Origin: an uncultured Acidimicrobiaceae bacterium
GTDB taxonomy: Bacteria; Actinomycetota; Acidimicrobiia; Acidimicrobiales; RAAP-2
NCBI GenBank assembly: GCA_963817005.1
Contig: CAWFMN010000004.1
Span: 1,125,358 to 1,189,357 of the forward strand
Length of the DNA stretch: 64,000 nt
Direction of reading: 5' to 3'
Shown here: piece by piece, positions 20,305 to 42,885 of the stretch
Layout: each line of letters begins with the position of its first letter
How positions within the stretch are numbered: position 1 is the first letter of the stretch
Made by a program: the position numbers and the translations under genes
The notes under the pieces: model-generated
Told to the model about the DNA's origin: nothing
Database searches by the model: none
What the model saw: the letters and a program-made list of their open reading frames with translations, nothing else

Positions 20305-21738
20305 TCACTCCTGCCGGCGGAGCGGAGGCTGGTCGAACCGGGGTGGGCCGGTGGCCGGGGGCGGGTGCTTGCCGGTGCCCCCCGGTCCGAGCCGTTGGCG
20401 CCGTCCCGGCCGCTCGGGTCGCTCGGGTCGCTCGGGCCGCTCGGGCCGCTCGGGCCGCTTGGGCCGCTTGGGCCGTTTGGGGACCACTGGTTTGTCGGGG
20501 GCGACCCACACCCAGGTGTCCCCCTCCCGTCGGAGGGTGAAGCCGCGGTGGGTCCGGTCCTGGTGGTGGCGGTGGCAGAGGCGGGCCAGATTGTCGAGGG
20601 CGGTCACCCCGCCCCGGGCGAAGTCGGTGACCCAGTGGTCGTTCTCGAGGCCCAGCCGGGCGTCACAGCCCGGGACCACGCACCTCGGGTCCCGCAGCAG
20701 CAGGGCCGAGCGCACCCGGCGGGGGATGTGGCGCCCGGCCGAGTAGACCGTGGTGACGTCGGTGCCGTGGGCCACCAGGAGCTCGACCAGGGCGTCACCC
20801 AGCCGGTCCCGGGCGTGGTCGACGGGCACCGGGCCCACCCCGGGGATCTCACAGCGCCCCCCACGCACCACGTGCCCCCCACGCAAGGACTCGAGGTCGA
20901 CCACCACCGAGACCGAGGCCCTGGGGTCGGGGGTGCGCCCGGTGGCCGGGGGGCCGGCCCGAGGGCCGGTGGTCCCTGGTCCCGGACCGAGGATCCCCCG
21001 CCCGCTGACCAGGGCCACCAGGGCGTCGGCCCGGTAGGCGTCGGGGGTCTCGAAGCGCCCGTCGTGCCGGGCCCGCCCGAACTGGCGGTCGGCCTGGGCC
21101 TCCAGGGCGGCCTGCAGCTCGGCCCCGGGCCCGGGGGCCAACCGGGCGTGCAGGCAGAGCGCCCCGTCCCCGTCGGTCCAGGTGCGGGCCGAGCGCTGGT
21201 CGTGGAGGTGCCGGTGGTGGCGGGCCTCGTCTCGTCTCGAGCGTCCCTCGGCCTGGGCCCTCAGGCACCGCTCCTTGAACGTGGCGTCGGTGTCGACCTG
21301 GGCCCCGTCGACCAGGTCGTGCTCCCGGGTCGGGTTGACCCCGGCCGCCTCGGCCACCTGGGTGGCCCGTCGGCGGGAGAGCCGGCCGGCCCGGAAGGCC
21401 TCGTCCAGTTCGGGCCGGTGGGCCAGCTGGTGGCCCAGGCGGAGCAGGCCCTTGGTGTCACCCACCGAGTCCCCGGTGGAGGAGGCCAGCAGCTCGGCGG
21501 CCGAGCGGTGGCCGGTCAGCCGGTGGAGGTTGGCCTCCTCCACCCGACGGGCGGCCAGGGTCTTGCCGGCCGAGGCGGTCCGCTCCACGGCGGTGAACAG
21601 GCGGACCAGGGCGATCGAGTCGCCCCCCGTGTAGCGCTCGGACTCGAGCGTGGCCACGAAGCGGGCCAGGACCCGCCCGGCCGCCTCGGCGTCGGCCATG
21701 GCGGGCGGGGTGTCGGTCTCGGGGGCGGTCACGGCCAC
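20305..21738 (-). CDS. HNH endonuclease, DUF222 (13E12-repeat type)
   Basis: N-terminal DUF222-like helical region. HNH core: CVVPGCDARLGLENDHWVTDFARGGVTALDNLARLCHRHHQ. Repetitive basic/acidic tail at the C-terminus. Confidence 0.85.
   Translation of the reverse strand: MAVTAPETDTPPAMADAEAAGRVLARFVATLESERYTGGDSIALVRLFTAVERTASAGKTLAARRVEEANLHRLTGHRSAAELLASSTGDSVGDTKGLLRLGHQLAHRPELDEAFRAGRLSRRRATQVAEAAGVNPTREHDLVDGAQVDTDATFKERCLRAQAEGRSRRDEARHHRHLHDQRSARTWTDGDGALCLHARLAPGPGAELQAALEAQADRQFGRARHDGRFETPDAYRADALVALVSGRGILGPGPGTTGPRAGPPATGRTPDPRASVSVVVDLESLRGGHVVRGGRCEIPGVGPVPVDHARDRLGDALVELLVAHGTDVTTVYSAGRHIPRRVRSALLLRDPRCVVPGCDARLGLENDHWVTDFARGGVTALDNLARLCHRHHQDRTHRGFTLRREGDTWVWVAPDKPVVPKRPKRPKRPERPERPERPERPERPGRRQRLGPGGTGKHPPPATGPPRFDQPPLRRQE
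20410..20483 (-). repeat. 9-bp in-frame tandem repeat (x8) encoding (PKR)3(PER)5 in the HNH protein tail
   Basis: ccgctcggg/tcgctcggg/ccgcttggg units read directly. Translation: PKRPKRPKRPERPERPERPERPERP. Confidence 0.9.
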
Positions 21739-31291: not shown

Positions 31292-31744
31292 TCAGCCGCC
31301 GGCCGCCGACCGGGCCGCCTCCCAACCGGCCACCATGGTCCCGAAGCGCATGGGGTTGTAGATGTCCTCCTCGTAGGACCACTTCCCGCCCCCGGCGTAC
31401 TTGAGCAGCGTGAAGTTGTACTCCTGGTGGACGCTGCCGTCGCCAGGGTCCTTCATCCGGTTCCAGACCTGGCACACCACCCAGCCCCGCTCCTCGTCGA
31501 TCACGTACCACTCGATGGGGAACTCGGGCATGTCACTGCCGGGGTACTCGGACATGGTGGCGCTGATCCACTGGTGGATGGCCTGGCGTCCCCTGAACTC
31601 CCCGTAGTGGTGCTCCAGGTAGGTGGCGTCCTCGGTGAACTGGTCGGCCCACTCCTGCCAGTCACCCGACGCTCCGGCGTCGGCCGCCTTCCGTTGGTAC
31701 TCGGCGAATGCCGACTCGATCTCGGCCCTGCTCCACTCTCCCAT
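31292..31744 (-). CDS. NTF2/SnoaL-like small protein
   Basis: Intact 150 aa: WADQFTEDATYLEHHYGEFRGRQAIHQWI..WYVIDEERGWVVCQVWN. Confidence 0.6.
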   Translation of the reverse strand: MGEWSRAEIESAFAEYQRKAADAGASGDWQEWADQFTEDATYLEHHYGEFRGRQAIHQWISATMSEYPGSDMPEFPIEWYVIDEERGWVVCQVWNRMKDPGDGSVHQEYNFTLLKYAGGGKWSYEEDIYNPMRFGTMVAGWEAARSAAGG

Positions 31745-31896
31745 GGCACCCGGCTCCTTCTGGCCCCCTTGGGCCGGCCATCAGTGTGGGTCGTGTCCCG
31801 CGTCCGGTCAACCGGTCCGGGCCCGGCCTGCCCGCCGATCGGTCGACTCCGCACTGGGCCGGTAGCATCCGGTCCAGGCGAAGGGAGGTGGCACCG

Positions 31897-33162
31897 GTGC
31901 AACTCCAATGGCGGGCCGTGGCCCTCGACGTACGGGACCCGGCCATCCCCTTCGAGGAGATCGTGCGGCTGATCGACGTGTCCGGTGCCTCCACCGCTGC
32001 GGCCTACAGCAGGAGCGACGTGGTGGAGGCCCTGCACGAGCACCAGCCCGCGGTGGTCGCCCTCTCCCCAGCCGGGGCCGTGGTCGGCGCCGTCGTGGCC
32101 CGGGTCGACGGCACTGACGCCCACCTCATGATGCTGGCCCTGCACCCCGACTGGCGCCACCGGGGGATCGGGTCGGGCCTGCTGCGCCGGCTGGACCAAG
32201 CGATCATCCACCGTGGGGCCCGACGGCTCCTGGCCCTGGTCGTGCCGGGACAGGTCGGCGAGTCGGCCTTCGCCAACCAGGGCTTCACCCGTCGCGACGG
32301 ACTGGACCTCTTCGCACGCGACGCCTCGATGGTGCCCGAGGAGCTGGCCATCGTGGAGCGGTTCGGGGGGCAGGTGCCCCCGGCCGGCCTATGGGAGTCG
32401 ATGAAGGGGTTCTCGACGGCCAAGGGCATCCTGGACCGGCGGGTGGTCGCCCCGTTGGCCCACCCCGAGCTGGCCGACCAGCTCGGGTTGGTCCCGCCGG
32501 CCGCCGTGCTCCTCTTCGGGCCTCCGGGGACCGGCAAGACCTCCTTCGCCCGGGCCATCGCCTCCCGGCTGTCGTGGGCTTTCGTCGAGCTCCATCCATC
32601 GCTGCTGGGACAGGGCGTGGAAGGCGCCCGGGCCCTGCGGGACGGCTTGGCCGAGCTCGGGAGAGTGGACAAGCTGGTGTGCTTCATCGACGAGGCCGAC
32701 GAGATCGCCTCGGACCGGTCGGAGCGACCCGACAGCCAGCCGCTGGTCAACGAGCTGTTGAAAGTGATCCCGGTGTTCAAGGCCCGGCCCGACTCGTTGA
32801 TGGTGATGGCCACCAACTCCATCGCCGCGATCGACGGGGCCCTGCTGAGGCCAGGTCGGTTCGACCTGGTCATACCGGTGGGTGCGCCGGACGAGTCGGA
32901 GCGAGTCGACCTGGCCGCCGAGCTCCTCCCCGCCGGGGAGGGGAAGGAGGTCGCGGCCCGGACGGCCGGCTTCACCCCTGCCGACTTCGCTCTGGTGGCG
33001 CAACGGAGCGCCCAGCTGGCCTTCGACCGGGCGCTGACCGGGGGCCGCGCCGAGATCCAGGCCGAGGACGTGCTGACCGCTATCGACCTGACCCGGCCGT
33101 CGGTGAGCCGCGAGGCGTCCCGGCGGTTCGAGGAAGAGGCCGCTAGCTACGCCCGTCTCTAG
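31897..33162 (+). CDS. GNAT acetyltransferase domain fused to a classical-clade AAA+ ATPase domain
   Basis: GTG 31897 follows AAGGGAGG. GNAT part: LMMLALHPDWRHRGIGSGLLRRL. AAA part: VLLFGPPGTGKTSFARAIA (Walker A), VCFIDEADEI (Walker B), MATNSIAAIDGALLRPGRFD (second region of homology). Confidence 0.8.
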   Translation: MQLQWRAVALDVRDPAIPFEEIVRLIDVSGASTAAAYSRSDVVEALHEHQPAVVALSPAGAVVGAVVARVDGTDAHLMMLALHPDWRHRGIGSGLLRRLDQAIIHRGARRLLALVVPGQVGESAFANQGFTRRDGLDLFARDASMVPEELAIVERFGGQVPPAGLWESMKGFSTAKGILDRRVVAPLAHPELADQLGLVPPAAVLLFGPPGTGKTSFARAIASRLSWAFVELHPSLLGQGVEGARALRDGLAELGRVDKLVCFIDEADEIASDRSERPDSQPLVNELLKVIPVFKARPDSLMVMATNSIAAIDGALLRPGRFDLVIPVGAPDESERVDLAAELLPAGEGKEVAARTAGFTPADFALVAQRSAQLAFDRALTGGRAEIQAEDVLTAIDLTRPSVSREASRRFEEEAASYARL

Positions 33163-34403: not shown

Positions 34404-35072
34404 CTAGCGGCGCGGGCCAGAGGGTTGGGGAGGCCCCGGGTCGCCGGCTGTCGCTCCGCCGGTCCGGAACTGGATGCTGATCCGGGGACCGACCGGACGG
34501 GTGGTCTTGGGCACGCAATGCTCCCAGAGCTGCTGGCAGCGCCCGCCCATGACCAGGAGGTCCCCGGCTCCGAGGGCGAACCGGAGGGCCGGGCCACCGG
34601 CCACCGGGCGCAGGAGAAGTCGCCGGCGGGCGCCGAGGGAGACGATGGCCACGACGGAGTCGGTCCCGGTGCCCCGTCCGTTCCGGTCCCCATGCCAGGC
34701 CACGCTGTCCACGCCGTTGCGGTAGAGGCAGGCGCCGACACTGCACAGCGGCCCGGTCGCCGCGGTCGGATAGCGCCGGCCGAGGACGTCCCACATGTCA
34801 CCGAGCAGCGGATGGGGCAACGCGTCCCCCGCGCCGTACGACGCCACCAGGCGCGGGACGTCCACAGTCCGGTCGTACATCGGTCGCCGCTCGAGCACCC
34901 ATGGCACCGACTCGGCCAGATCCTCGAACAGCAGGTCGTGGCGCCGGACCCACCCCGGCCGGAGCTCCAGCCAGGCGTGCGGACCGAGGGGCGTCCGGGT
35001 CAGGTCGGTGGCCACCGGCTCCAGTCCCACCCGATCACCGAGATCGAAGAGCGTCCGCTGCCAGTGGGTCAT
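34404..35072 (-). CDS. alkB: AlkB-type Fe(II)/2-oxoglutarate-dependent dioxygenase (alkylation repair family)
   Basis: VAWHGDRNG (HxD), LWEHCVPK (distal His), RISIQFR (2OG-binding RxSxxxR); 222 aa. Confidence 0.8.
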   Translation of the reverse strand: MTHWQRTLFDLGDRVGLEPVATDLTRTPLGPHAWLELRPGWVRRHDLLFEDLAESVPWVLERRPMYDRTVDVPRLVASYGAGDALPHPLLGDMWDVLGRRYPTAATGPLCSVGACLYRNGVDSVAWHGDRNGRGTGTDSVVAIVSLGARRRLLLRPVAGGPALRFALGAGDLLVMGGRCQQLWEHCVPKTTRPVGPRISIQFRTGGATAGDPGPPQPSGPRR

Positions 35073-35149: not shown

Positions 35150-35965
35150 TCAGTGATAGACCACGGGCGCGTCGAAGGCGGCCCGTCGGGACGCCCGCCG
35201 CAGGGCGGCCAGCACCGGATGACCGAGGAGCAGGACCAGCATGGCGTTGGTAACGGCCCGGGAGATGTCGAAGCCCAGGGACGTGGTCAGGTCGAAGAGG
35301 ATGAAGCTGTGCAGGTTGGCCAGGGGGCCGGCCCCGGGCGAGTACGAGAAACTGGTGGACGTGCCCGCGCCGAAGGGCCAGAACCACAGGTTGAGCAAGG
35401 TCCCGTAGAGCACGGCAGAGCCGGCGGCATAGCCGGCCAGCAACACGAGCTCGGCCCGCCCCTTGGCCCGGGGTAGGCATCCGGCCCCGAATCCCATCCA
35501 GGCCGCGCCGAACATCTGGAAGGGCAGCCACGGTCCGATGCCGCCGGTGATCAACGCCGAGACGACGATGGTCACCGCTCCGAGCACGAACCCGAAGCCA
35601 CGACCGAAGACCCGGCCGGCCGGGATCAACAGGAAGAACACCGGCTCGAATCCGGCCACGCCCGGGCTGGGTATGCGCAGGGCGGCGCCACAGGCGGCCA
35701 GGATCCCGAGCAGGGCGATGGCCTTGGCGTCCAAGGAGCCCTCGGCCAACTCCCCTATGACCACCGCCAGGAACAAGGGGAGGACGGCCACGAACAGCCA
35801 CGGGGCGTCGGCCGCGTGGGCCTGTCCTGCTCCGGCGTGGCCGTGGATCACCAGGGGCCAGCAGAACGCCACCATACCGATGAGCGACGTCACCGCCAGG
35901 AGGACGGATGCCCGCGGTCGGAGCCGGATGGTGGTCGGCCGGGCCACACGCGGGACGCCTACCAC
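35150..35965 (-). CDS. ECF transporter substrate-specific (S) component, polytopic membrane protein
   Basis: Six or seven hydrophobic helices (LLAVTSLIGMVAFCWPL, WLFVAVLPLFLAVVIG, FFLLIPAGRVFG, ITGGIGPWLPFQMFGAAWMG). Last gene of the ECF operon. The start is uncertain; GTG 35965 overlaps the ATPase stop. Confidence 0.65.
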   Translation of the reverse strand: MVGVPRVARPTTIRLRPRASVLLAVTSLIGMVAFCWPLVIHGHAGAGQAHAADAPWLFVAVLPLFLAVVIGELAEGSLDAKAIALLGILAACGAALRIPSPGVAGFEPVFFLLIPAGRVFGRGFGFVLGAVTIVVSALITGGIGPWLPFQMFGAAWMGFGAGCLPRAKGRAELVLLAGYAAGSAVLYGTLLNLWFWPFGAGTSTSFSYSPGAGPLANLHSFILFDLTTSLGFDISRAVTNAMLVLLLGHPVLAALRRASRRAAFDAPVVYH

Positions 35966-37578
35966 TGACCCCCCAGGGCCTGGCGGACCTCGTCCACCGT
36001 CAGCCATGGTTCCGGGGCCAGCACCTTGGCGACCTGCGGCGCGAACACCGGGGAGTGGCAGACCACGTCGCGGGCCGGTCCGTCTGCCACCACCTCGCCC
36101 TCGGCCAACACCACGGCACGGGTGGCCATCTGGGCCACCAGCTCCACGTCGTGGGTGGCCACGACGATGCAGTCCCCGTTGGCCGCCAGCTTCCGGACCA
36201 GCGTCACCAGCCGCTCCTTGCCGGAATAGTCGAGACCGCGGGTGGGCTCGTCCAAGAGGATCAGTGGGGGACGGGGAGCCAAGACGATGGCCAGGGCCAG
36301 GGCCAGACGCTGGCCTTCGGACAGGTCACGAGGGTGACGGTCCGAGGGGACCCCCGGCAGGACCTCCTCCAGCACGGCAGCGGTGGTCCCCGGTCGGAGG
36401 CCGGTCTCGTCGTCGGCCGTTGCACACTCGTCGGCCACCGATTCGCCGTAGAGCAGCATTCCGGCGTCCTGGGGCACCAGGCCGACCTTCGTGATCAGCT
36501 TCCGCGCCGGGAGGTCGGTGGGCCGGGTGCCGAGCACGGCGACCCGCCCCGCGGACGGCTTGCGCAGACCGGCCAGGTGGGCCAGGAGTGTGGACTTACC
36601 GGATCCGTTGCGACCCATCAGGGCCACCACCTCGCCGGCGCCCATCTCGAGGGAGACTCCGTCCAGGGCCAGCACGGGGCCGTACTCGACACGGACCCGC
36701 TCGGCCCGGGCCGCCGGTTCGCCGACCGGCCCGGTGGCCGTCTCCCGATCGGGCGCCGGCGCCCCGGCCAACCGCTGGCGAAGGGGACCCGACAAGCGCC
36801 GCGCGTCCCGCACAGACAGGGGCATCGGCGCCCACTCGGCCACGCGGGCCAGCTCCACAAGGGGTGGGGCCACCGGCGAGCTGGCCATGATGTCGGCTGT
36901 GGCCCCCACCACCAGGGCGGCCCCGTCTCCGGGCACGAGCACGACGCGGTCGGCAAACGGGATCACCCGCTCCAGGCGGTGCTCAGCCAATACCACGGTC
37001 ATCCCCACGTCGTGAACCAGCCGGGTCAGCGAGGCCAGCACCTCCTCTGCGGCGGCGGGGTCCAGCGCCGAGGTCGGTTCGTCCAGGACCAGCACCCGGG
37101 GCGAGGCGCTCAGCACCGCGCCGATGGCCACCCGTTGCTGCTGGCCTCCCGAGAGGGTGGCCAGCGGCCGGTTCCGGAGCTCGTGGAGCCCTAGCAGGTC
37201 GAGGGTGTCCTCGACCCGGCGACGCATGGCGGCGGGCGCGATGCCCAGGTTCTCCATGGTGTACGCCAGTTCGTCCTCGACGGTGTCGGTGACGAAGCTG
37301 GAGGCGGGGTTCTGGCCCACCACTCCGACCAGGTCGGCCAGCTCCCGCGGCGGATGGTCCCGGGTGGAGCGACCCTCGATGGTGATGTCTCCCGAGAGGT
37401 GGCCCCCGGTGAAGTGGGGCACGAGCCCGTTGATCGCCCGCAGCAGCGTGGTCTTGCCCGATCCGGTCTCCCCCACCACCAAGCAGAGCTCCCCCTCGTC
37501 GATGGTGAGGTCGACCCGGCGCAGCGTGGGTCGGGTGGCGTCGGCGTAGGTGAAGGTGACGTGGTCGAACCGGATCAT
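35959..37578 (-). CDS. ECF transporter ATPase, duplicated ABC domains (A-A fusion)
   Basis: Two Walker A motifs (GETGSGKTTL, GRNGSGKSTL), two signature motifs (LSGGQQQRV, LSEGQRLAL) and two Walker B motifs (VLVLDEPTS, LILLDEPTR). ATG 37578 overlaps the upstream stop as ATGA. Confidence 0.9.
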   Translation of the reverse strand: MIRFDHVTFTYADATRPTLRRVDLTIDEGELCLVVGETGSGKTTLLRAINGLVPHFTGGHLSGDITIEGRSTRDHPPRELADLVGVVGQNPASSFVTDTVEDELAYTMENLGIAPAAMRRRVEDTLDLLGLHELRNRPLATLSGGQQQRVAIGAVLSASPRVLVLDEPTSALDPAAAEEVLASLTRLVHDVGMTVVLAEHRLERVIPFADRVVLVPGDGAALVVGATADIMASSPVAPPLVELARVAEWAPMPLSVRDARRLSGPLRQRLAGAPAPDRETATGPVGEPAARAERVRVEYGPVLALDGVSLEMGAGEVVALMGRNGSGKSTLLAHLAGLRKPSAGRVAVLGTRPTDLPARKLITKVGLVPQDAGMLLYGESVADECATADDETGLRPGTTAAVLEEVLPGVPSDRHPRDLSEGQRLALALAIVLAPRPPLILLDEPTRGLDYSGKERLVTLVRKLAANGDCIVVATHDVELVAQMATRAVVLAEGEVVADGPARDVVCHSPVFAPQVAKVLAPEPWLTVDEVRQALGGQW

Positions 37579-38738
37579 GCCCGGCTCCCCTCGACCGGCT
37601 CGACGGTCACGACCGGCACGTCGGCGGTTCGATGGGGCCGTCTCGGGACGGCAAGGGCCACCGGCGCCGGTGCGGCGAGGGCCGGGACCGATCCGACCAG
37701 GATCCCGAGGACGGCCACCAGGGGGAGCTGGGGTGGATGCAGCGGAGTGACGGTGAACTGGAGCCCCGGCACCTCGAGGATCCCGGCGACGATGAGACTG
37801 GCCAGGGCCACGGCGCCCGACGCCACCACCAGCCACTCGGCCGTGCGCCAGACGTCAGGTCGGTACCGGGTGCGGTTGGTGCGCCGGCCGCCGACGGCCA
37901 TGCCCACGCCAACCAGCACGGCCCCGGCCGCCACGAAGGGCACGCCCCCGGCGGGCAGAGAGCCTGCGTCCAGTAGGCCGTACACGCCGACGAGCACGAG
38001 GAGTATCCCGCCGGCAGTCGAGGCACTACCCAGTCGGCGGGTGCCAACGGGCACCGCCACCCGCCGCCCGTAGCCACGGGCGTCCATGGAGGACGCCAGC
38101 TGCAGTGAGCGGTCGAGAGCGCTCTCCAGCACCGGGATGGCCATTCCGCGCAACCCGGCCACCCCTCGGGTCGGTCGACCCCGGAGCCGGCGGGCGTCCC
38201 GAACCCCGGCGATGGCCATCACCACTTCGGGGGCGAAGGCCAGCGAGACCGTCACGGCCACCCCGGCCTCGTAGAGGATCGCCGGTAGGCAGCGAAGGAG
38301 GCGGTAGGGGCTGGCCAGGGAGTTGGCCGCCCCGAAGCAGATCAGGATCACGGCCAGGCGCAGGCCCTCGACGGCCGATTGGATCACCGCCTCCGCCGTG
38401 ACCGGTCCCCCGATGCTGACGCCGGCCGCCCAGGAGGGCAAGGGGACCTGGGGAAGCGTGAACAGAGTGTGGCCGGGCAGGCGGTCCCCGAAGACGATCT
38501 GCACGACGACACGGACCACGATCACGACCATGCCCATCCGGAAGAAGAAGACGATCGAACGGGACCAGGGCGCAGCGGTACGGCGGGCCGACACCACGAA
38601 GGCGGCCACGGCGGCGACGAGGGACAGCAGGATCGGATTGGTCGTCCGGGTGGCTGCTCCGGCCAGGCAACCGGCCCACAGCCACCAGGCCGCCGGATGC
38701 AGGCTTCGACGCCCGGAGGGGGTGGACCGGCGGGTCAT
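37575..38738 (-). CDS. ECF transporter transmembrane (T) component, CbiQ/EcfT family
   Basis: Polytopic: PYRLLRCLPAILYEAGVAVTVSLAFAPE..ARRLRG and ALDRSLQLASSMDARGYG are the EcfT coupling-helix-type motifs. Confidence 0.8.
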   Translation of the reverse strand: MTRRSTPSGRRSLHPAAWWLWAGCLAGAATRTTNPILLSLVAAVAAFVVSARRTAAPWSRSIVFFFRMGMVVIVVRVVVQIVFGDRLPGHTLFTLPQVPLPSWAAGVSIGGPVTAEAVIQSAVEGLRLAVILICFGAANSLASPYRLLRCLPAILYEAGVAVTVSLAFAPEVVMAIAGVRDARRLRGRPTRGVAGLRGMAIPVLESALDRSLQLASSMDARGYGRRVAVPVGTRRLGSASTAGGILLVLVGVYGLLDAGSLPAGGVPFVAAGAVLVGVGMAVGGRRTNRTRYRPDVWRTAEWLVVASGAVALASLIVAGILEVPGLQFTVTPLHPPQLPLVAVLGILVGSVPALAAPAPVALAVPRRPHRTADVPVVTVEPVEGSRA

Positions 38739-39667
38739 TGCGGACGGGCGCGTCGTCGCCAGCCGAAGACGGCGCCAGCGGCCAGGGCCAGTACCAGCAG
38801 AGCTCCGAAGATCGCCGGCAGGGCACCCTCACCCGCGCCGGCACGATCGTCGGCGGCGGGCGTGGCCTTGAGCGACTGGGCCGGCAGACCCGAGCGCGAC
38901 GACCGGGTGGTGGGAGCAGTCGTCCCGCTGGCACCCCCGGTCCCGGCCGCCTGGGTCGTCGGCGAGGACGAGGCGGTGGTCGGATGGCCGGCGGCGGGAA
39001 CCGAGCTGCCCACCACCGACGAGCCGCCCGAGGCCTTGGGTGTCACGCTGCCGCCCGGCGAGCCTGTCGAGGGAGCCACCGTGGTGACCGGGGCGGCCGC
39101 GGGCGGGGCCGCGGTGGTCGGAGTCGAGTTCGCCGGCCCGCAGATGGCGGCGTAGCTGGGCGCCGGCAACGGATGGGGATCGTTCGGATTGGACTGCCCG
39201 TCGGTCTCGAAGCGCCATCCCTCGACATCACCCTCCTGTACGGCAGAGAACGCCCCGGTGCTGGCGTAGACCCAAGAGCCCGTGGTCCCGTGCCAGTAGG
39301 ACCAGTAGTCGTACCCCCCCGCCACCTGGGCACCACAGACGGTGGGCGCATTGCCCGGGAGGTTGTCGATCGAACACAGTAGGCCGGCGTTGTTGTAGAT
39401 GGGCTGGGCGTCGCCGCGCTGAGCGACGAATGCCCCCAACGCGGCGTAGCCGTTGTCCGTGGAGGGGACCTGAACGCATCCCACGACTGGTGCCCCCAGA
39501 CCGCCGAAGTCGACAACGAAGGCCACACTCACCTCGGTGGCAGCGCCGGCAGCATCCTTGAACGGCATCAGCGCATCCGGTCCGGCCGCCGCCAGGGCGA
39601 CCGACGCCGCCCCGACGAACAGAGTCCCGGAGATCAATTTCCGGACCGCCCCGGGGCCACTGGCCAT
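38735..39667 (-). CDS. secreted/anchored DUF4430-like protein with a long S/T/P/A-rich linker and C-terminal TM anchor
   Basis: N-terminal signal-like helix. Beta-domain pattern: YAALGAFVAQ..YDYWSYWHGTTGSWVYASTGAFSAVQEGDVEGWRF. About 110 aa of PTTAAPPAAAPVTT..SSSPTT follow, then ALPAIFGALLVLALAAGAVFGWRRR. Confidence 0.65.
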   Translation of the reverse strand: MASGPGAVRKLISGTLFVGAASVALAAAGPDALMPFKDAAGAATEVSVAFVVDFGGLGAPVVGCVQVPSTDNGYAALGAFVAQRGDAQPIYNNAGLLCSIDNLPGNAPTVCGAQVAGGYDYWSYWHGTTGSWVYASTGAFSAVQEGDVEGWRFETDGQSNPNDPHPLPAPSYAAICGPANSTPTTAAPPAAAPVTTVAPSTGSPGGSVTPKASGGSSVVGSSVPAAGHPTTASSSPTTQAAGTGGASGTTAPTTRSSRSGLPAQSLKATPAADDRAGAGEGALPAIFGALLVLALAAGAVFGWRRRARPQ

Positions 39668-41493
39668 CAGCCCACCCGGACCGTGCTGGTGGCTGCTCCC
39701 ACGATGGGGGCGTTGAGGTGGGAGCCGCCGTGGGAGCCCTCGAAGGTGGCGTCCCCGTAGGTGAAGATGCCTCCGTCCGAGGCCACCAGCCAGTAGCCCT
39801 GGCCGTCACCTGTCGACGCCATGCCCACGATGGGGGCGTTGAGGTGGGAGCCGCCGTGGGAGCCCTCGAAGGTGGCGTCCCCGTAGGTGAAGATGCCTCC
39901 GTCCGAGGCCACCAGCCAGTAGCCCTGGCCGTCACCTGTCGACGCCATGCCCACGATGGGGGCGTTGAGGTGGGAGCCGCCGTGGGAGCCCTCGAAGGTG
40001 GCGTCCCCGTAGGTGAAGATGCCTCCGTCCGAGGCCACCAGCCAGTAGCCCCCGCCGTCCGGTGTGCCGCTCATCGCCACGATGGGGGCGTTGAGGTGGG
40101 AGCCGCCGTGGGAGCCCTCGAAGGTGGCGTCCCCGTAGCTGAAGATGCCTCCGTCCGAGGCCACCAGCCAGTAGCCCTGGCCGTCACCTGTCGACGCCAT
40201 GCCCACGATGGGGGCGTTGAGGTGGGAGCCGCCGTGGGAGCCCTCGAAGGTGGCGTCCCCGTAGGTGAAGATGCCTCCGTCCGAGGCCACCAGCCAGTAG
40301 CCCCCGCCGTCCGGTGTGCCGCTCATCGCCACGATGGGGGCGTTGAGGTGGGAGCCGCCGTGGGAGCCCTCGAAGGTGGCGCTGCCGTAGGTGAACACGC
40401 CGCCGTCCGAGGCGGCCAGCCGGTACCCGCCGGCTATCTGAAACGGATCCACCACGCCGGCCACCGCCGGCACCGCCTGGAAGGTGGCGGTCAGGTCGGC
40501 CCCACCACCGAGCGAGAACTGGAAGGCCCCGGCGTCGGCTCCCGTGCTCAACTGGAAGGAAACCAGGGTGCTGACCGGGTCGCCCGACACTTTGACGAAC
40601 GGTGCCGCGGTCGGCGACTGGCCCAGCGCCACCAGCGCCTGGACGACCAGCGCCGTGGAGTCGGGATCCGTAGGTCCGGGGTGAGACGTCGGGTTGGCAT
40701 AGTAGGCCCATCCCCCGTCGCCCTGCTGCGTGGCTGTGAGGTAGCTCAACGCCGCGCTCTCGCTCGTGGACCCCAGGACCCCCTGGGCCACCAGGCCCTG
40801 TGCGGCCACGGCCGTCGAGTTGGTGTCCGCCCCGGCGAAGGCGTTCGGGTCACCGGTGCACGGGTTGAGAGCCACGTCGCTGGACCATCCGCCGTTGGAG
40901 CACTGCTGGCCCAATAGCCAGCTCTCCGCCGTCCCCAGCTGGGCGCTGCCGGTCACTCCGACCGCGGCGAGGGCGGACAGCGCCAGACCCTGCCGATAGG
41001 CGCCGTCGAAGGTGGGATCCTGCACGCCGAAGAGGCCCGTGGGCTGTTCGGTGGCCAGCAGCCGGCGGACCAGGTCGGTGCCACCGAACGAGTAGGGGTC
41101 GGCCCTCAGCGCATGGGCGTCGAGTATGAGCAACGCCAATTGGCTGGCACCGTCACTCCCCGAGACCGTCACATACTGGGACACCTGGGTGCTGAGGTAG
41201 ATCAGCGCGGCGTTGGCCCGGGGGAGGTCGGTGTCCGCGGCGGACAGCGCCAGGACGGTGTTGGCCGTAAAGGACAGGTTGGCCTGCCCGGGGGCGTTCC
41301 CGGGGATGTAACCGGACGGAGTCAACTGGTTGGCCAGCCACCCGGCGCCGGCACGGGCCGAGTCCGGCTGGGGGAACACAGTCGATGAGACGAGGGACGG
41401 GGCGGAGGCGCCGGCGATCATCGGTGCCGCAACGATCCCCGTCATGAGGCAGACCCCGAGGCCTGCCGTCGCCAGTAGGCGCTTGATGGACAT
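39667..41493 (-). CDS. secreted prenyltransferase/terpene-cyclase-like (alpha/alpha toroid) protein with six C-terminal 40-aa repeats
   Basis: Signal peptide: MSIKRLLATAGLGVCLMTGIVAAPMIAGASA. Toroid-type repeats: QQCSNGGWSS and QQGDGGWAYY. Then 6 x GYWLVASDGGIFTYGDATFEGSHGGSHLNAPIVGMASTGDGQ. The stop overlaps the next start (TGATG). Confidence 0.8.
   Translation of the reverse strand: MSIKRLLATAGLGVCLMTGIVAAPMIAGASAPSLVSSTVFPQPDSARAGAGWLANQLTPSGYIPGNAPGQANLSFTANTVLALSAADTDLPRANAALIYLSTQVSQYVTVSGSDGASQLALLILDAHALRADPYSFGGTDLVRRLLATEQPTGLFGVQDPTFDGAYRQGLALSALAAVGVTGSAQLGTAESWLLGQQCSNGGWSSDVALNPCTGDPNAFAGADTNSTAVAAQGLVAQGVLGSTSESAALSYLTATQQGDGGWAYYANPTSHPGPTDPDSTALVVQALVALGQSPTAAPFVKVSGDPVSTLVSFQLSTGADAGAFQFSLGGGADLTATFQAVPAVAGVVDPFQIAGGYRLAASDGGVFTYGSATFEGSHGGSHLNAPIVAMSGTPDGGGYWLVASDGGIFTYGDATFEGSHGGSHLNAPIVGMASTGDGQGYWLVASDGGIFSYGDATFEGSHGGSHLNAPIVAMSGTPDGGGYWLVASDGGIFTYGDATFEGSHGGSHLNAPIVGMASTGDGQGYWLVASDGGIFTYGDATFEGSHGGSHLNAPIVGMASTGDGQGYWLVASDGGIFTYGDATFEGSHGGSHLNAPIVGAATSTVRVG
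39694..40428 (-). repeat. six tandem 120-bp near-identical coding repeats (two alternating variants, order A-B-A-B-B-terminal)
   Basis: Near-identical DNA blocks visible at 39700-40420. Protein units differ only in the linker: VAMSGTPDGG versus VGMASTGDGQ. Confidence 0.95.
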
Positions 41494-41539
41494 TGGGGTG
41501 ATTCCTCACTTCCGGACGGTGACCCGGAAGCCTCATGGA

Positions 41540-41725
41540 ACCTCGACGGGTCCGTGACCAACCGAGTCCCTGCCGCATGTTCTCGACGGGATTGGACTCA
41601 ACGAACAGCCCATCGGTATCCCGGCTCGTGACGAGTGTCTCCACCCGCCACCCACGGTTGCGGACCAGCGCCGGATTTCGACCGGCTTCCCCGAAGTGCT
41701 GCTTGGTGCTGCAGACGGACCCTAC
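41540..41725 (-). promoter_or_regulatory. cobalamin (B12) riboswitch-like leader
   Basis: Minus-strand read 41692->41653: GGGGAAGCCGGTCGAAATCCGGCGCTGGTCCGCAACCGTG (compare the core GGGAA..GGTG..AATCC..GC.G..CCGC.AC.GT). B12-box-like GAGCCGGGATACC at 41627->41615. Hairpin CTTCCGG-N8-CCGGAAG (41530->41509) abuts the GAGGA RBS (41507->41503). Boundaries are approximate. Confidence 0.6.
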
Positions 41726-41844
41726 CAGGACGAGCGGACCCTGGCTCGTGGCCGCCTGGGTCGACCCGCTCACGACCCGGTCGACCCGGGGTCCGGCTCG
41801 ACGCCTCCCTGTGCCCGCCCGCGGCCGGCTCGCTCGGTGGCGGT

Positions 41845-42885
41845 TCAGTCGATGACCGAGATGGGCCTGCCGGTACCGGCCCGTCGGAGATGACGGAGCA
41901 CCTCCCGGTAGGCCCGCCAGGGACTCTGCTCGGCGTAGGCGATCCGGCGCTCGGCGCAGAAGGGGCGCACCACGGCCCGGGCCCGGCGCAGGTTGGCCCG
42001 GGGCATGGACGGGAAGAGGTGGTGCTCGATCTGGGTGTCGAGCCCGCCGTAGAGGAAGCCGGTGAACGAGGGCCCGGTCAGGTTGCGTGACGTGAGCACC
42101 TGTCGGCGCAGGAATCCCAACTCGTCGGTGCCGGACAGCGTGGGCATGCCCACGTGGTTGGTGATGAAACTCACCCCCAGATAGAAGCCCAACAAGGCCT
42201 GGGTGACAAGGATGAACCCCACGGCCCGGAGCGGCGAGAGCACGAGGAAAGGGGCCACGAAGAAGAGGAGGACGTGGACAGCCAGGAGGCCGACCTCGCC
42301 GGCCACCGCACGGTCGCGCCGGCGGGCCAGCGAGATGGCGCTGGCCACGTGGAGGTTGAGGGCCTCGAGGAACAGCAGTGGCAACAACAGGAGCATCTGC
42401 GACCGGGCGAACCGGCGTCCGAACCGTCCACGACCCCTGGCCTGATCCGGCGTGTAGACCAATGCCCCCGGCACCAGGTCCGGGTCCTTGTCGGGGCGAT
42501 TGGTGTGGGCGTGGTGGCGGTTGTGCTTGGTCAACCACCATCCGAAGCTGAAGCCCACGAACAGATTGGCTACCAGCAGCCCGATGAGATCGTTGCCGCG
42601 TCGATGCACGCAGATCTGACGGTGGCCGGCGTCGTGACCGATGAAGCCCAGTTGGGTGAGGACGAAGGCCAGCACCGCGGCGGCCACCAGCACCCACCAG
42701 GTGTTACCGAGCAGCACCACGGCGGCGGCCACTGCCCCGAGCGCGGCGAGCGACACGACGATCTTGGCCGAGTAGTAGCCGCGTCGTCGGCCCAGCAGCC
42801 CGTCGTCGCGGACCTGACGCGAGAGCTCGGCGAAGTCCTGGCCAGTCGAGGCGATGGAGGGCGAAGCCTCGAACGTCGTGTCCAT
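41845..42885 (-). CDS. membrane fatty acid (acyl-CoA/acyl-lipid) desaturase
   Basis: Three histidine boxes: HDAGHRQ, HNRHHAH, QIEHHLFP. 346 aa with TM helices. Confidence 0.9.
   Translation of the reverse strand: MDTTFEASPSIASTGQDFAELSRQVRDDGLLGRRRGYYSAKIVVSLAALGAVAAAVVLLGNTWWVLVAAAVLAFVLTQLGFIGHDAGHRQICVHRRGNDLIGLLVANLFVGFSFGWWLTKHNRHHAHTNRPDKDPDLVPGALVYTPDQARGRGRFGRRFARSQMLLLLPLLFLEALNLHVASAISLARRRDRAVAGEVGLLAVHVLLFFVAPFLVLSPLRAVGFILVTQALLGFYLGVSFITNHVGMPTLSGTDELGFLRRQVLTSRNLTGPSFTGFLYGGLDTQIEHHLFPSMPRANLRRARAVVRPFCAERRIAYAEQSPWRAYREVLRHLRRAGTGRPISVID

What the first reader, a model, noticed from the sequence alone, without database searches (positions are those of the whole stretch)
35150..41725. 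B12-riboswitch-led operon: secreted toroid protein + DUF4430-like protein + ECF importer (possible split transcobalamin-like corrinoid capture system)
Seen in sequence: five co-directional minus-strand genes are tightly coupled (TGATG at 39665-39669, ATGA at 37575-37578, overlap at 35959-35965) and sit behind a cobalamin-riboswitch-like leader.
- Gene 1: signal peptide, QxxxGGW terpene-cyclase/prenyltransferase-type alpha/alpha-toroid repeats, and six 40-aa repeats.
- Gene 2: signal helix, a DUF4430-like beta domain (YWSYWHG..GDVEGWRF), about 110 aa of S/T/P-rich stalk, and a C-terminal membrane anchor.
- Genes 3-5: ECF T, A-A and S components.

Established knowledge: eukaryotic transcobalamin and intrinsic factor are an alpha6/alpha6 barrel plus a small beta domain. 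DUF4430 is the bacterial relative of that beta domain. ECF-CbrT is a demonstrated B12 importer. B12 riboswitches typically control corrinoid uptake.

Inference: the two secreted proteins could together form a cell-surface corrinoid-binding device that feeds the ECF module. As far as I know, no such split extracellular capture module has been characterised biochemically, and the extra repeat module on the toroid protein is unusual.
Basis: partly seen in the sequence, partly recalled or inferred. Interest (0 to 1): 0.8.

Follow-up and report, generated by a model that had tools for sequence, protein, structure and literature searches.

The report
B12-riboswitch ECF importer with surface proteins
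This is a vitamin-B12-repressed operon of an Acidimicrobiaceae bacterium that pairs a CbrT-like ECF importer with two secreted surface proteins, one folded like the B12-binding beta domain of human transcobalamin; a similar layout has already been proposed in Lactobacillus sakei, and none has been tested biochemically.

Summary
A cobalamin riboswitch (RF00174, 35.9 bits, above the family's gathering score) leads five overlapping minus-strand genes:
- a secreted alpha/alpha-toroid protein with six 42-aa repeats;
- a secreted, C-terminally membrane-anchored protein;
- EcfT;
- a fused EcfA-A' ATPase;
- an S component.

New evidence:
- The S-component family's best solved relative is CbrT, the proven B12 S component (E 7e-11; FolT 2.6e-3).
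- The AF2 model of gene 2 best matches the transcobalamin beta domain in the PDB (probability 1.0, TM 0.65-0.68), although Pfam DUF4430 is not hit.
- The toroid matches terpene cyclases and prenyltransferases. It lacks DxDD, and transcobalamin is not among its top 50 matches.
- Across 80 Acidimicrobiales loci, 72 of the 73 with upstream sequence carry the riboswitch, and the last has a sub-threshold AdoCbl match.

The beta-domain gene accompanies the ECF genes wherever the contig extends far enough, but the toroid gene is present in only about half of the loci. The repeat module also occurs on peptidoglycan hydrolases, so it is probably an anchor.

Prior art: the L. sakei lsa1836-1840 operon was described as an ECF transporter plus split transcobalamin-like alpha and beta proteins, with heme proposed as substrate.

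Verdict: a corrinoid uptake operon that is a new variant of a known kind. Capture by the surface proteins is inferred.

The parts
41595..41734 (-). Cobalamin riboswitch aptamer (RF00174)
   Evidence: Scores 35.9 bits against a gathering score of 31.5 and covers model positions 1-189. My own covariance model R1 matches 41586-41739 at 143 bits. Across 62 homologous leaders 92.8% of cells are paired and 16 pairs show compensatory changes, against 27-47% paired in slid controls.
41494..41594 (-). Expression platform (inferred). It holds a hairpin at about 41509-41532 next to a GAGGAA Shine-Dalgarno-like site at 41502-41507, 8 nt before the ATG at 41493.
   Evidence: Read from the sequence. No intrinsic terminator was found here. 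The MFE fold is not better than shuffles, with z -0.37. Control at the translational level is therefore an inference only.
39667..41493 (-). Gene 1: secreted alpha/alpha-toroid protein with a C-terminal repeat module (608 aa)
   Evidence: ORF. Hits Pfam SQHop_cyclase_C and NCBIfam SCO2321_fam (157.6 bits, below the cut-off of 300). Its exact sequence is in public collections, and the related proteins looked up that carry a name are called 'hypothetical protein'.
40459..41391 (-). Gene 1 toroid domain (about residues 35-345). Residues 1-34 (41392-41493) are a signal-peptide-like segment.
   Evidence: AF2 gives mean pLDDT 88.2 and pTM 0.86, with residues 1-34 below 50. Foldseek against the PDB returns drimenyl diphosphate synthase, squalene-hopene cyclase and RabGGTase beta at E 1e-7 to 1e-4. 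There is no DxDD motif. C198 and C212 are invariant in 70 homologs.
39673..40428 (-). Gene 1 repeat module: six 42-aa repeats (residues 356-607)
   Evidence: It has no convincing Pfam or PDB match. The same module is fused to CHAP, Amidase_3, SpoIID, YkuD, GH43 and PQQ_2 domains in other proteins. In other members of the toroid family it is replaced by He_PIG, TIG or Big_3_5 Ig-like domains.
38735..39667 (-). Gene 2: secreted, membrane-tethered protein with a transcobalamin-beta-like domain (310 aa)
   Evidence: ORF. Hits NCBIfam SCO2322_fam at 52 bits, below the cut-off of 85. All 120 listed homologs carry PF28005.1, an accession absent from the local Pfam copy.
39140..39535 (-). Gene 2 globular beta domain (about residues 45-176)
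   Evidence: AF2 block-mean pLDDT is 82-98 across the core. The top Foldseek PDB hits are the transcobalamin beta domain (8ixu, 5np4, 5no0) at E 7e-3, probability 1.00 and TM 0.65-0.68 normalised to the 105-aa domain. C64, C98, C111 and C176 are invariant.
38765..39127 (-). Gene 2 stalk rich in A, S, T, G and P (about residues 181-282) and C-terminal TM anchor (residues 283-301), followed by RRRARPQ
   Evidence: Composition and hydropathy. The C-terminal hydrophobic segment and the W-R-R-R motif are nearly invariant in the family.
37575..38738 (-). Gene 3: EcfT (T component), 387 aa, with a C-terminal extension of about 160 aa that is rich in TM segments
   Evidence: Hits Pfam CbiQ at 23.9 bits (cut-off 25) over residues 13-225. 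Matches PDB EcfT chains 4hzu_T and 4huq_T at E 2e-3 over residues 66-224. Hydropathy.
35959..37578 (-). Gene 4: fused EcfA-A' ATPase (539 aa, two ABC domains)
   Evidence: Hits Pfam ABC_tran at 1.8e-56 in two stretches. Hits NCBIfam ECF_ATPase_2 at 315.8 bits and ECF_ATPase_1 at 311.5 bits, and cbiO at 257.9 bits, above its cut-off of 211.8.
35150..35965 (-). Gene 5: CbrT-like ECF S component (271 aa from GTG 35965; an alternative ATG at 36007 gives 285 aa)
   Evidence: Six hydrophobic segments. The family has 1556 representatives at E<=1e-3. The family profile's best PDB hit is 6fnp_A (CbrT) at E 7.3e-11, with FolT at 2.6e-3. Relatives hit Pfam ECF_trnsprt and are found fused to CbiQ or ABC domains.

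Best explanation
This is a cobalamin-repressed corrinoid-scavenging operon of an Acidimicrobiaceae bacterium.

Shown:
- A cobalamin riboswitch precedes five translationally coupled genes.
- Three of these genes encode a dedicated (group-I-style) ECF importer. Its S component belongs to the same family as CbrT, the experimentally proven cobalamin/cobinamide S component.
- Two genes encode exported proteins.

Inferred mechanism:
- When intracellular B12 is low the riboswitch lets the operon be expressed, probably at the level of translation initiation.
- The gene 2 protein is exported and held by a C-terminal TM anchor. A low-complexity stalk of about 100 residues presents its transcobalamin-beta-like domain in or beyond the cell wall. 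There it binds corrinoids and passes them to the CbrT-like S component, which is then energised by EcfT and EcfA-A'.
- The gene 1 protein is an exported, catalytically inert alpha/alpha toroid. It is held at the wall by its 6 x 42-aa repeat module.
- The toroid is an optional enhancer. Most plausibly it closes over the beta-domain-bound corrinoid as the alpha domain does in transcobalamin, raising affinity or broadening specificity.
- About half of related operons lack the toroid gene, so the beta-domain protein plus the ECF transporter is the core of the system.
For: Riboswitch:
- RF00174 scores above its gathering score, and it is the only Rfam hit in the window.
- The same leader precedes 72 of the 73 related loci that have upstream sequence.
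- The one exception, L068, has a sub-threshold AdoCbl match (RF01482, 39 bits, E 6e-4) at the same place.
- The leaders show covariation.

ECF module:
- The S family profile matches CbrT (6FNP) at E 7.3e-11 against FolT at 2.6e-3.
- 6FNP is ECF-CbrT, which transports cobalamin and cobinamide (PMC5997447).

Beta domain:
- The AF2 core is confident.
- The best PDB fold matches are transcobalamin beta domains, including 5np4, 'Beta domain of human transcobalamin bound to cyanocobalamin'. This shows that an isolated beta domain can hold B12.

Export:
- Both proteins have signal-like N-termini and invariant cysteine pairs.

Toroid:
- The fold is confident.
- There is no DxDD motif.

Linkage:
- 75 of 80 loci have the g2 gene followed by all three ECF genes, and the gaps in several of the others fall at contig ends.
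- About 40 of the 80 also have the toroid gene. In 33 loci g2 directly follows the riboswitch.
- Three to four loci have riboswitch-toroid-g2 without ECF genes, so the pair is itself a B12-regulated unit.

Repeat module:
- It is shared with peptidoglycan-active enzymes.

Precedents:
- L. sakei lsa1836-1840.
- Riboswitch-led ECF modules in acI Actinobacteria.
Against: - No binding or transport data exist for any member of these families.
- The beta-domain similarity is at fold level only: Foldseek E about 7e-3, with ubiquitin-like domains of USP7 close behind. There is no Pfam DUF4430 hit, no PDB sequence hit, and hhalign against TCN2 is negative.
- The toroid is closer to terpene cyclases and prenyltransferases than to transcobalamin, which is absent from its top 50 matches. 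There is no Cobalamin_bind hit.
- No prediction of the toroid-beta complex could be run.
- The toroid is absent from about 40% of operons, so a two-chain clamp cannot be essential.
- The homologous L. sakei system was assigned to heme, not B12.
- The expression platform is not resolved.
- Whether the organism makes or needs B12 cannot be told from 64 kb. No B12 genes were seen among the immediate neighbours.
Confidence: 0.62

Rival explanations
1. The ECF module is a B12 importer that works on its own, like ECF-CbrT. The two secreted proteins are co-regulated but do not bind corrinoids. They might be cell-envelope proteins that open a path through the wall, or they might have an unrelated B12-sparing role.
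For: - ECF-CbrT needs no extracytoplasmic partner (PMC5997447).
- There is no sequence-level link of either protein to known B12 binders.
- The toroid is dispensable in cis in 33 of 80 loci.
- The repeat module is typical of wall-associated enzymes.
Against: - The g2 gene precedes ECF genes in nearly all of the 80 loci.
- The toroid-g2 pair alone also sits behind a B12 riboswitch in L023, L040 and L066.
- The best PDB fold match of g2 is the B12-binding beta domain of transcobalamin.
Confidence: 0.17
2. The system imports heme or another tetrapyrrole rather than corrinoids, as proposed for the similarly organised L. sakei lsa1836-1840 operon.
For: In L. sakei an ECF S, AA' and T module plus transcobalamin-alpha-like and beta-like secreted proteins was linked to heme uptake by an operon deletion and by docking (bioRxiv 10.1101/864751).
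Against: - The cobalamin riboswitch is conserved on essentially every related locus. Regulation by B12 makes sense for B12 uptake, not for heme uptake.
- The S component is nearest to CbrT.
- No heme-related gene lies next to the operon.
- Homology to the L. sakei proteins themselves was not tested here.
Confidence: 0.06
3. The toroid is an extracellular enzyme or a stripping factor rather than a passive clamp. For example, it could release corrinoids from environmental carrier proteins or humic complexes, or remodel or trim them before the beta-domain protein takes them.
For: - Its nearest solved structures are enzymes (terpene cyclases, prenyltransferase beta subunits, a methylmannose polysaccharide hydrolase).
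- Its residue conservation is strong, with 35 invariant columns.
- It is optional in cis, as expected of an accessory that matters only in some niches.
Against: - There is no DxDD motif.
- No catalytic-site evidence was obtained.
- Terpenoid diphosphate substrates are cytoplasmic, whereas this protein has a signal peptide.
Confidence: 0.1
4. The operon imports cobalt (as CbiMNQO does) or a B12 building block such as the lower ligand, not intact corrinoids.
For: - B12 riboswitches also control cobalt ECF transporters.
- The T and ATPase subunits hit 'cobalt transport' families (CbiQ, cbiO).
Against: - CbiQ and CbiO are the generic names of the ECF T and A components.
- The S component has no CbiM or CbiN match and is nearest to CbrT.
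- A transcobalamin-beta-like domain fits a large corrinoid ligand better than a metal ion.
Confidence: 0.05

Closest known systems
ECF-CbrT of Lactobacillus delbrueckii (PDB 6FNP; PMC5997447)
   Same: Both are ECF-type ABC importers. The S component here belongs to the same sequence family: the profile matches CbrT at E 7.3e-11, the best hit in the PDB. CbrT transports cobalamin and cobinamide.
   Different: - CbrT shares a housekeeping ECF module (group II) and sits in an nrdJ-cbrS-cbrT-pduO cluster. Here T, A-A' and S are dedicated and co-operonic (group I style), and the two ATPases are fused.
- The S component here is about 90 aa longer, with an N-terminal extension.
- EcfT here carries a C-terminal extension of about 160 aa.
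- Two secreted proteins precede the transporter here.
- The operon here is under a riboswitch.
Lactobacillus sakei lsa1836-1840 'ECF-like' system (bioRxiv 10.1101/864751)
   Same: Both have the same five-part inventory: an S component, a fused A-A' ATPase, a T component, a secreted protein resembling the transcobalamin beta domain, and a secreted alpha/alpha-toroid protein resembling the alpha domain. The same idea was proposed there: the two secreted proteins capture the ligand and feed the S component.
   Different: - The substrate proposed there is heme, based on an operon deletion and on docking. In the passages I read, no riboswitch is mentioned.
- The host there is a Firmicute.
- Here the beta protein has a long stalk and a C-terminal TM anchor, the toroid carries a 6 x 42-aa repeat module, and B12 regulation is conserved across the lineage.
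Eukaryotic transcobalamin / intrinsic factor / haptocorrin
   Same: These proteins have an alpha6/alpha6 toroid plus a small beta domain that sandwich cobalamin (established knowledge). The gene 2 domain's best PDB fold matches are transcobalamin beta domains. Gene 1 is an alpha/alpha toroid.
   Different: - Here there are two separate polypeptides, not one chain.
- There is no detectable sequence similarity.
- The toroid is structurally nearer to terpene cyclases and prenyltransferases.
- The toroid partner is absent in about 40% of related operons.
- The proteins are surface-tethered, not soluble carriers.
Bacteroides surface B12-binding lipoproteins BtuG and BtuH (PMC8941943 for BtuH)
   Same: These are functional analogues: surface-exposed accessory proteins, encoded in B12 transport loci, that bind B12 outside the cell and supply the membrane transporter (abstract listed; BtuG from my own knowledge).
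   Different: They have unrelated folds, sit in a different envelope (outer-membrane lipoproteins feeding TonB-dependent BtuB), and work with a different transporter class.
NCBIfam SCO2321 family membrane protein / SCO2322 family protein (Streptomyces)
   Same: Gene 1 matches SCO2321_fam (157.6 bits) and gene 2 matches SCO2322_fam (52 bits). These are consecutively numbered genes of Streptomyces coelicolor, which suggests that the pair is conserved more widely in Actinomycetota.
   Different: Both scores are below the curated cut-offs (300 and 85), so these are distant relatives, not members. I found no functional literature on SCO2321-2325. I could not inspect the Streptomyces locus.
Riboswitch-led ECF modules of freshwater acI Actinobacteria (PMC5301498)
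   Same: ECF modules preceded by cobalamin/AdoCbl riboswitches in B12-auxotrophic Actinobacteria were predicted to be cobalamin transporters.
   Different: That paper does not describe secreted accessory proteins. No sequence comparison was made here.

Membership tests
Cobalamin riboswitch (Rfam RF00174) | Covariance-model score at or above the curated gathering score | tested here: met
   35.9 bits against 31.5, covering the full model 1-189.
Cobalamin riboswitch (Rfam RF00174) | Conserved secondary structure supported by covariation in homologous leaders | tested here: met
   In 62 leaders 92.8% of cells are paired and 16 of 30 pairs show double changes. Slid controls give 27-47% paired. The alignment was fitted to the model, which favours the structure somewhat.
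Cobalamin riboswitch (Rfam RF00174) | Located in the 5' leader, on the same strand as a B12-related operon | tested here: met
   The aptamer ends about 100 nt upstream of the gene 1 ATG. The same position is seen in 72 of the 73 loci with upstream sequence.
Cobalamin riboswitch (Rfam RF00174) | Ligand-dependent switching of expression | not testable with these tools
   No terminator was found, and the MFE of the leader is not better than shuffles. RBS sequestration is only inferred.
ECF transporter (dedicated, group I type) | EcfT / CbiQ-family T component | tested here: met
   Pfam CbiQ at 23.9 bits, just under the cut-off of 25, over 203 of 216 profile positions. PDB EcfT chains 4hzu_T and 4huq_T at E 2e-3. 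The match is weak but specific, and it is consistent with the gene's position in the operon.
ECF transporter (dedicated, group I type) | Two ECF-type ABC ATPase domains | tested here: met
   ABC_tran matches in two stretches at 1.8e-56. ECF_ATPase_1 and ECF_ATPase_2 score 311-316 bits, just under their equivalog cut-offs because the protein is a fusion. cbiO scores 257.9 bits, above its cut-off of 211.8.
ECF transporter (dedicated, group I type) | Small integral-membrane S component encoded with the module | tested here: met
   Six hydrophobic segments. Profile hits to the S components CbrT and FolT. Relatives hit Pfam ECF_trnsprt and are fused to T or ATPase domains. The gene overlaps the ATPase gene.
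CbrT family (cobalamin-specific S component) | Sequence homology to CbrT that is stronger than to other S-component families | tested here: met
   6fnp_A at E 7.3e-11 and 45 bits, against FolT at 2.6e-3 and 20 bits. No other S components appear. NCBIfam has no CbrT model, and 8 of 47 members weakly hit the FolT family.
CbrT family (cobalamin-specific S component) | Binds and transports cobalamin and cobinamide | not testable with these tools
   This needs the E. coli complementation assay (strain lacking btuF, metE and btuC) or proteoliposome uptake, as in PMC5997447.
Transcobalamin / intrinsic factor / haptocorrin family | C-terminal beta domain (Pfam DUF4430, PF14478) recognisable by sequence | tested here: not met
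   None of the 84 family members hits it at E<=1. A phmmer search and a profile search against the PDB find no transcobalamin. hhalign against human TCN2 gives probability 0.04.
Transcobalamin / intrinsic factor / haptocorrin family | Fold of the beta domain | tested here: met
   The top Foldseek PDB hits are 8ixu, 5np4, 5no0, 7qbe and 2bb6, at probability 1.00, E 7e-3 to 2e-2, and TM 0.65-0.68 normalised to the isolated 105-106-aa domain. The E-values are modest, and USP7 ubiquitin-like domains follow closely.
Transcobalamin / intrinsic factor / haptocorrin family | N-terminal alpha6/alpha6 barrel of the Cobalamin_bind (PF01122) type | tested here: inconclusive
   The alpha/alpha-toroid fold is confirmed. 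However, transcobalamin is not among the 50 listed matches, there is no PF01122 hit in 70 members, and hhalign against TCN2 gives probability 0.5%. The fold class is the same; specific kinship is not shown.
Transcobalamin / intrinsic factor / haptocorrin family | Alpha and beta domains in one polypeptide that enclose one cobalamin | tested here: not met
   There are two separate genes. 33 of 80 related operons have no toroid gene nearby. Complex formation and ligand binding cannot be tested here.
Class II terpene cyclases / protein prenyltransferase beta subunits | Alpha/alpha toroid with QW-type repeats | tested here: met
   SQHop_cyclase_C is hit in 70 of 70 members and Prenyltrans in 27 of 70. 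Foldseek gives E 1e-7 to 1e-4. Two QxxxGGW motifs are present.
Class II terpene cyclases / protein prenyltransferase beta subunits | Catalytic DxDD motif (cyclases) and a cytoplasmic or membrane-facing location with access to prenyl diphosphates | tested here: not met
   There is no DxDD motif anywhere in the protein. The N-terminus is signal-peptide-like and a cysteine pair is invariant. The zinc ligands of prenyltransferases were not examined.
NCBIfam SCO2321_fam / SCO2322_fam | Score at or above the curated cut-off | tested here: not met
   157.6 bits against 300, and 52 bits against 85. L015 and L023 homologs score 62-66 bits against 85. These are related proteins, not members.
L. sakei Lsa1836-1840-type ECF with transcobalamin-like accessory proteins | Operon encoding S, A-A' and T components plus secreted beta-like and alpha-like proteins | tested here: met
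   The same five functional parts are present here, compared with the description.
L. sakei Lsa1836-1840-type ECF with transcobalamin-like accessory proteins | Orthology of the individual proteins | not tested

The most novel reading that the evidence does not exclude
The membrane-tethered beta-domain protein, alone or clamped by the wall-anchored toroid, is a high-affinity extracytoplasmic corrinoid receptor that hands its ligand to a CbrT-like S component. If so, ECF transporters, which are defined in textbooks by having no substrate-binding protein, can work with a dedicated surface capture device. The toroid + beta gene pair would also represent the unfused bacterial form of the architecture that eukaryotes use in transcobalamin, intrinsic factor and haptocorrin.
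Probability: 0.35. Interest if true: 0.8.

Novelty: new variant of a known kind. Interest (0 to 1): 0.55.

Why it matters
How Gram-positive and actinobacterial cells scavenge B12 from dilute environments is poorly understood. ECF-CbrT is the only characterised ECF-type B12 importer, and it has no external partner. This operon family gives a clean, strongly B12-linked case in which an ECF importer is almost always encoded with a surface-tethered domain that folds like the B12-binding beta domain of transcobalamin.

If the beta domain binds corrinoids, three things would follow:
- ECF transporters can use extracytoplasmic capture proteins.
- The heme assignment of the related L. sakei system would need re-examination.
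- There would be a bacterial model for the origin of the animal B12 carriers.

It is also relevant to B12 economics in the peat, bog and soil communities that many of the related MAGs come from, judging by their isolate names. The proteins are annotated only as 'hypothetical', so an annotation rule (riboswitch + PF28005/SCO2322-like + CbrT-like ECF) would be immediately useful.

Tried and rejected
Sequence searches for a link to transcobalamin (all negative):
- phmmer of gene 2 against the PDB.
- A profile of 84 homologs against the PDB; only spurious PsaF hits.
- Pfam on all 84 members at E<=1; no DUF4430.
- hhalign of the gene 2 and gene 1 family alignments against human TCN2.
- Pfam on 70 toroid homologs; no Cobalamin_bind.

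Only the structure-based search linked gene 2 to transcobalamin.

Repeat module:
- No meaningful PDB or Pfam match.
- The DUF6321 and AbiEi_4 'hits' have no stretch that passes on its own, so I treat them as artefacts of the repeats.
- The idea that the repeats are a B12-binding propeller like BtuG was considered. I set it aside because the module is shared with CHAP, amidase, SpoIID and YkuD enzymes and is replaced by Ig-like domains in orthologs.

Expression platform:
- No terminator or sigma-70 promoter was found.
- The leader's MFE is not unusual.

B12 enzymes next to the system:
- MetH lies beside the L023 locus, but it is not found in any other locus or in the window.
- The 406-aa ORF after g2 in L023 is a spurious Arg-rich frame.

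Immediate neighbours in the window are unrelated to B12: a fatty-acid desaturase, a 2OG-Fe(II) oxygenase, a luciferase-like monooxygenase, a GNAT-AAA protein and an esterase.

Literature:
- Nothing functional on DUF4430 in bacteria or on SCO2321-2325.
- No paper joins CbrT with prenyltransferase-like proteins.
- Rodionov et al. 2009 (PMC2612444) is not held.

- A complex prediction of gene 1 + gene 2.
- A pairwise structural superposition on the transcobalamin alpha domain.

Full report
**1. What is in the sequence**

Between 35150 and 41740 the minus strand carries one leader and five ORFs.
- Gene 1: 39667-41493, 608 aa.
- Gene 2: 38735-39667, 310 aa.
- Gene 3: 37575-38738, 387 aa.
- Gene 4: 35959-37578, 539 aa.
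- Gene 5: 35150-35965 from a GTG, or to 36007 from an ATG.

All four junctions overlap: TGATG, ATGA, ATGA and GTGGTAG. This is the pattern of translationally coupled genes.

The flanking genes are unrelated to B12. A fatty-acid desaturase lies upstream at 41845-42885. A 2OG-Fe(II) oxygenase (34404-35072) and a luciferase-like monooxygenase lie downstream.

**2. The leader**

A scan of the whole window with Rfam at gathering thresholds gives one hit only. It is RF00174 (Cobalamin) at 41595-41734(-), scoring 35.9 bits against 31.5, over the full length of the model. About 100 nt separate the aptamer from the ATG at 41493. This stretch holds a hairpin (about 41509-41532) abutting a GAGGAA site.

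No intrinsic terminator or sigma-70 promoter was detected, and the leader's folding energy is not exceptional. The mode of control, probably translational, is therefore inferred and not shown.

**3. The transporter**

- Gene 4 has two ABC domains and scores 311-316 bits on the NCBIfam ECF ATPase models.
- Gene 3 matches Pfam CbiQ (23.9 bits, cut-off 25) and the EcfT chains 4hzu_T and 4huq_T (E 2e-3) over residues 66-224. A TM-rich extension of about 160 aa is left unexplained.
- Gene 5 has no Pfam or NCBIfam hit on its own but has six hydrophobic segments.

An exhaustive HMMER search with gene 5 found 1556 cluster representatives at E<=1e-3. Some of them hit Pfam ECF_trnsprt or are fused to CbiQ or ABC domains.

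A profile of 47 full-length members was searched against all PDB sequences.
- The best hit is 6fnp_A at E 7.3e-11.
- FolT follows at 2.6e-3.
- No other S component appears.

6FNP is ECF-CbrT of L. delbrueckii, shown to transport cobalamin and cobinamide (PMC5997447). The S component sides with the one proven B12 S component.

**4. Gene 2**

The protein has four parts:
- a signal-like N-terminus;
- a globular domain (about residues 45-176) with four invariant cysteines;
- a stalk of about 105 aa made of A, S, T, G and P;
- a C-terminal TM helix followed by RRRARPQ.

Sequence methods do not connect it to any B12 binder.
- No Pfam family is hit in the local library.
- None of 84 homologs hits DUF4430, even at E<=1.
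- No PDB hit is found by phmmer or by profile.
- hhalign against human TCN2 is negative.
- It weakly matches NCBIfam SCO2322_fam, at 52 bits against a cut-off of 85.
- All listed homologs carry the precomputed accession PF28005.1, which the local Pfam copy lacks.

An AF2 model built on 84 sequences is confident in the core, with block-mean pLDDT of 82-98. Foldseek against the PDB puts transcobalamin first. The hits are rat, human and bovine transcobalamin and the isolated human beta domain (5np4, 5no0), at probability 1.00, E 7e-3 to 2e-2, and TM 0.65-0.68 when normalised to the 105-106-residue domain.

USP7 ubiquitin-like domains follow at similar E-values, so this is a fold-level resemblance of moderate strength. 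The entry 5np4 ('Beta domain of human transcobalamin bound to cyanocobalamin') shows that such a domain can hold B12 without the alpha domain.

**5. Gene 1**

- Residues 1-34 are signal-like, with pLDDT below 50.
- Residues 35-345 fold as a confident alpha/alpha toroid, with mean pLDDT 88 and pTM 0.86.
- Its best PDB matches are drimenyl diphosphate synthase, squalene-hopene cyclases, the MstE cyclase and prenyltransferase beta subunits, at E 1e-7 to 1e-4.
- Transcobalamin is not among the 50 matches listed.
- All 70 homologs hit SQHop_cyclase_C. None hits Cobalamin_bind.
- hhalign against TCN2 is negative.
- There is no DxDD motif, and a cysteine pair is invariant.

An exported, non-catalytic binding toroid is the simplest reading. 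Kinship with the transcobalamin alpha domain is limited to the shared fold class.

Residues 356-607 are six 42-aa repeats. TRF gives a 126-nt period, and three of the repeats are identical at the DNA level. A search with the full protein saturated at 8000 hits because this module is widespread. It is attached to CHAP, Amidase_3, SpoIID, YkuD, GH43 and PQQ_2 domains. Within the toroid family itself it is replaced by He_PIG, TIG or Big_3_5 Ig-like domains. I therefore read it as an interchangeable surface-anchoring or spacer module, not as part of a B12 site. This is an inference.

**6. Comparative genomics**

A scan of one genome per species returned 80 loci. All are from Acidimicrobiales or Acidimicrobiaceae MAGs, or from MAGs labelled only as Actinomycetota or Actinomycetes.

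tblastn with the window's proteins, together with my covariance model, sorts the loci into these types:

| Type | Gene order | Loci |
|---|---|---|
| A | riboswitch-toroid-g2-T-AA'-S | about 40 |
| B | riboswitch-g2-T-AA'-S, with no toroid gene within 8 kb on either side | 33 |
| C | riboswitch-toroid-g2, with no ECF genes (L023, L040, L066) | 3 (possibly 4: L074 is cut off downstream) |

The remaining few loci are truncated or atypical (for example L039).

The riboswitch is found in 72 loci. Seven of the eight misses have no upstream sequence. The eighth, L068, has a sub-threshold AdoCbl (RF01482) match at the expected place.

In 62 leaders, 92.8% of cells are paired and 16 of 30 pairs carry compensatory changes. 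Slid controls give 27-47% paired.

On a neighbour-joining tree of g2, type B forms one large clade plus at least four scattered cases. The toroid gene has therefore been gained or lost several times.

The constant elements are the riboswitch, the beta-domain protein and, usually, the ECF module. The toroid is an accessory.

**7. Mechanism proposed**

Shown:
- The operon is led by a B12 riboswitch, and the link is conserved across the lineage.
- The importer is a CbrT-family ECF transporter.
- Two exported proteins are encoded with it.
- One exported protein has a transcobalamin-beta-like fold and the other an alpha/alpha-toroid fold.

Inferred:
- At low B12 the operon is expressed.
- The stalked, membrane-anchored beta domain captures corrinoids in or beyond the wall and delivers them to the S component.
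- The wall-anchored toroid, where present, caps or stabilises the bound corrinoid, or widens the range of corrinoids captured.

The main rival is that the ECF module works alone, as ECF-CbrT does, and that the two secreted proteins serve another B12-conditional role.

**8. Relation to what is known**

- The closest precedent is the L. sakei lsa1836-1840 operon. Its authors described an S component, A-A', a T component and two secreted proteins resembling the transcobalamin beta and alpha domains. They proposed that the pair scavenges the ligand for the S component, and they assigned heme as the ligand from a deletion phenotype and docking (bioRxiv 10.1101/864751).
- Riboswitch-led ECF modules were proposed as B12 importers in acI Actinobacteria (PMC5301498).
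- NCBI has family models for the Streptomyces relatives (SCO2321 and SCO2322), with no function attached.
- The homologs I looked up that carry a name are called 'hypothetical protein'.
- I found no biochemical characterisation of any member.

The concept is therefore not new. Three things are new here: the strength of the B12 link (riboswitch on essentially every locus, and CbrT kinship), the finding that the beta-domain protein is the constant partner while the toroid is optional, and the lineage-specific architecture (stalk plus TM anchor, repeat module, extended EcfT).

**9. Verdict**

- Novelty: a new variant of a known but biochemically untested kind.
- Interest: 0.55. The finding is not categorically new. 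It does offer a well-defined and highly testable case that bears on whether ECF transporters can use external capture proteins and on the bacterial roots of the transcobalamin architecture.

Noticed in passing
window 39673-40428 (gene 1 residues 356-607): A 42-aa repeat ([35 protein letters not shown]...) has no usable Pfam, NCBIfam or PDB match. It is very common in this lineage: the search saturated at 8000 hits. It is found fused to CHAP, Amidase_3, SpoIID, YkuD, GH43 and PQQ_2 domains. Three of the six copies here are 100% identical at the DNA level, which suggests recent amplification or gene conversion, or possibly assembly collapse. Six repeats of 42 aa would fit a six-bladed propeller, but no structure was predicted.
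   Followed up: partly
window 37575-38063 (gene 3 residues about 225-387): The EcfT homolog carries a C-terminal extension of about 160 aa, with roughly four predicted TM segments, beyond the region that aligns with solved EcfT structures (residues 66-224). tblastn matches in related loci span most of the protein, so the extension seems to be conserved. Its role is unknown; one speculation is that it docks the gene 2 anchor.
   Followed up: partly
L023 6252-8963, L040, L066 (and L074, which is truncated): These loci have a stand-alone riboswitch-toroid-g2 unit with no ECF genes downstream. In these loci the toroid carries a He_PIG Ig-like domain instead of the 42-aa repeats. In L023 a B12-dependent methionine synthase (MetH, 1169 aa) lies about 3 kb away on the opposite strand, but this adjacency is not seen in any other locus.
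   Followed up: partly
L039 8001-15614: The order is atypical. A g2-like gene (8001-8528) lies upstream of the riboswitch (8929-9086), and toroid, repeat and ECF genes follow the riboswitch. This may be two systems in tandem or a rearrangement.
   Followed up: no
L068 6190-6332: This is the only locus with upstream sequence that my model missed. Its leader matches the AdoCbl family RF01482 (39 bits, below the gathering score of 50, E 6e-4) rather than RF00174. A different cobalamin-clan aptamer variant may therefore sit at the same position.
   Followed up: partly
L001 and L009 (both from MAG MFD05521.bin.2.175): The same MAG holds two copies of the whole operon, on different contigs, both more than 90% identical to the window. 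In L009 the matches to the T and ATPase genes are broken or low (39% and 71%). This suggests frameshifts or assembly errors, or a decaying second copy, or a mixture of strains in the bin.
   Followed up: no
gene 2 homologs P0001-P0120: All carry the precomputed Pfam accession PF28005.1, which is absent from the local Pfam-A copy, so I could not read its name or description. If it is defined as a transcobalamin-beta or DUF4430-related family, that would bear directly on the interpretation.
   Followed up: no
window 88-190 and 4262-4322: There are short perfect or near-perfect tandem octamer arrays: CACGGGGG x 12.8 and TTCGGTGT x 7.6. A 9-mer array lies at 20408-20475. Their context was not examined.
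   Followed up: no
window 31708-33162 (+): This ORF combines a GNAT acetyltransferase domain with an AAA+ ATPase domain in a single 484-aa protein. It is an uncommon fusion and is unrelated to the finding.
   Followed up: no
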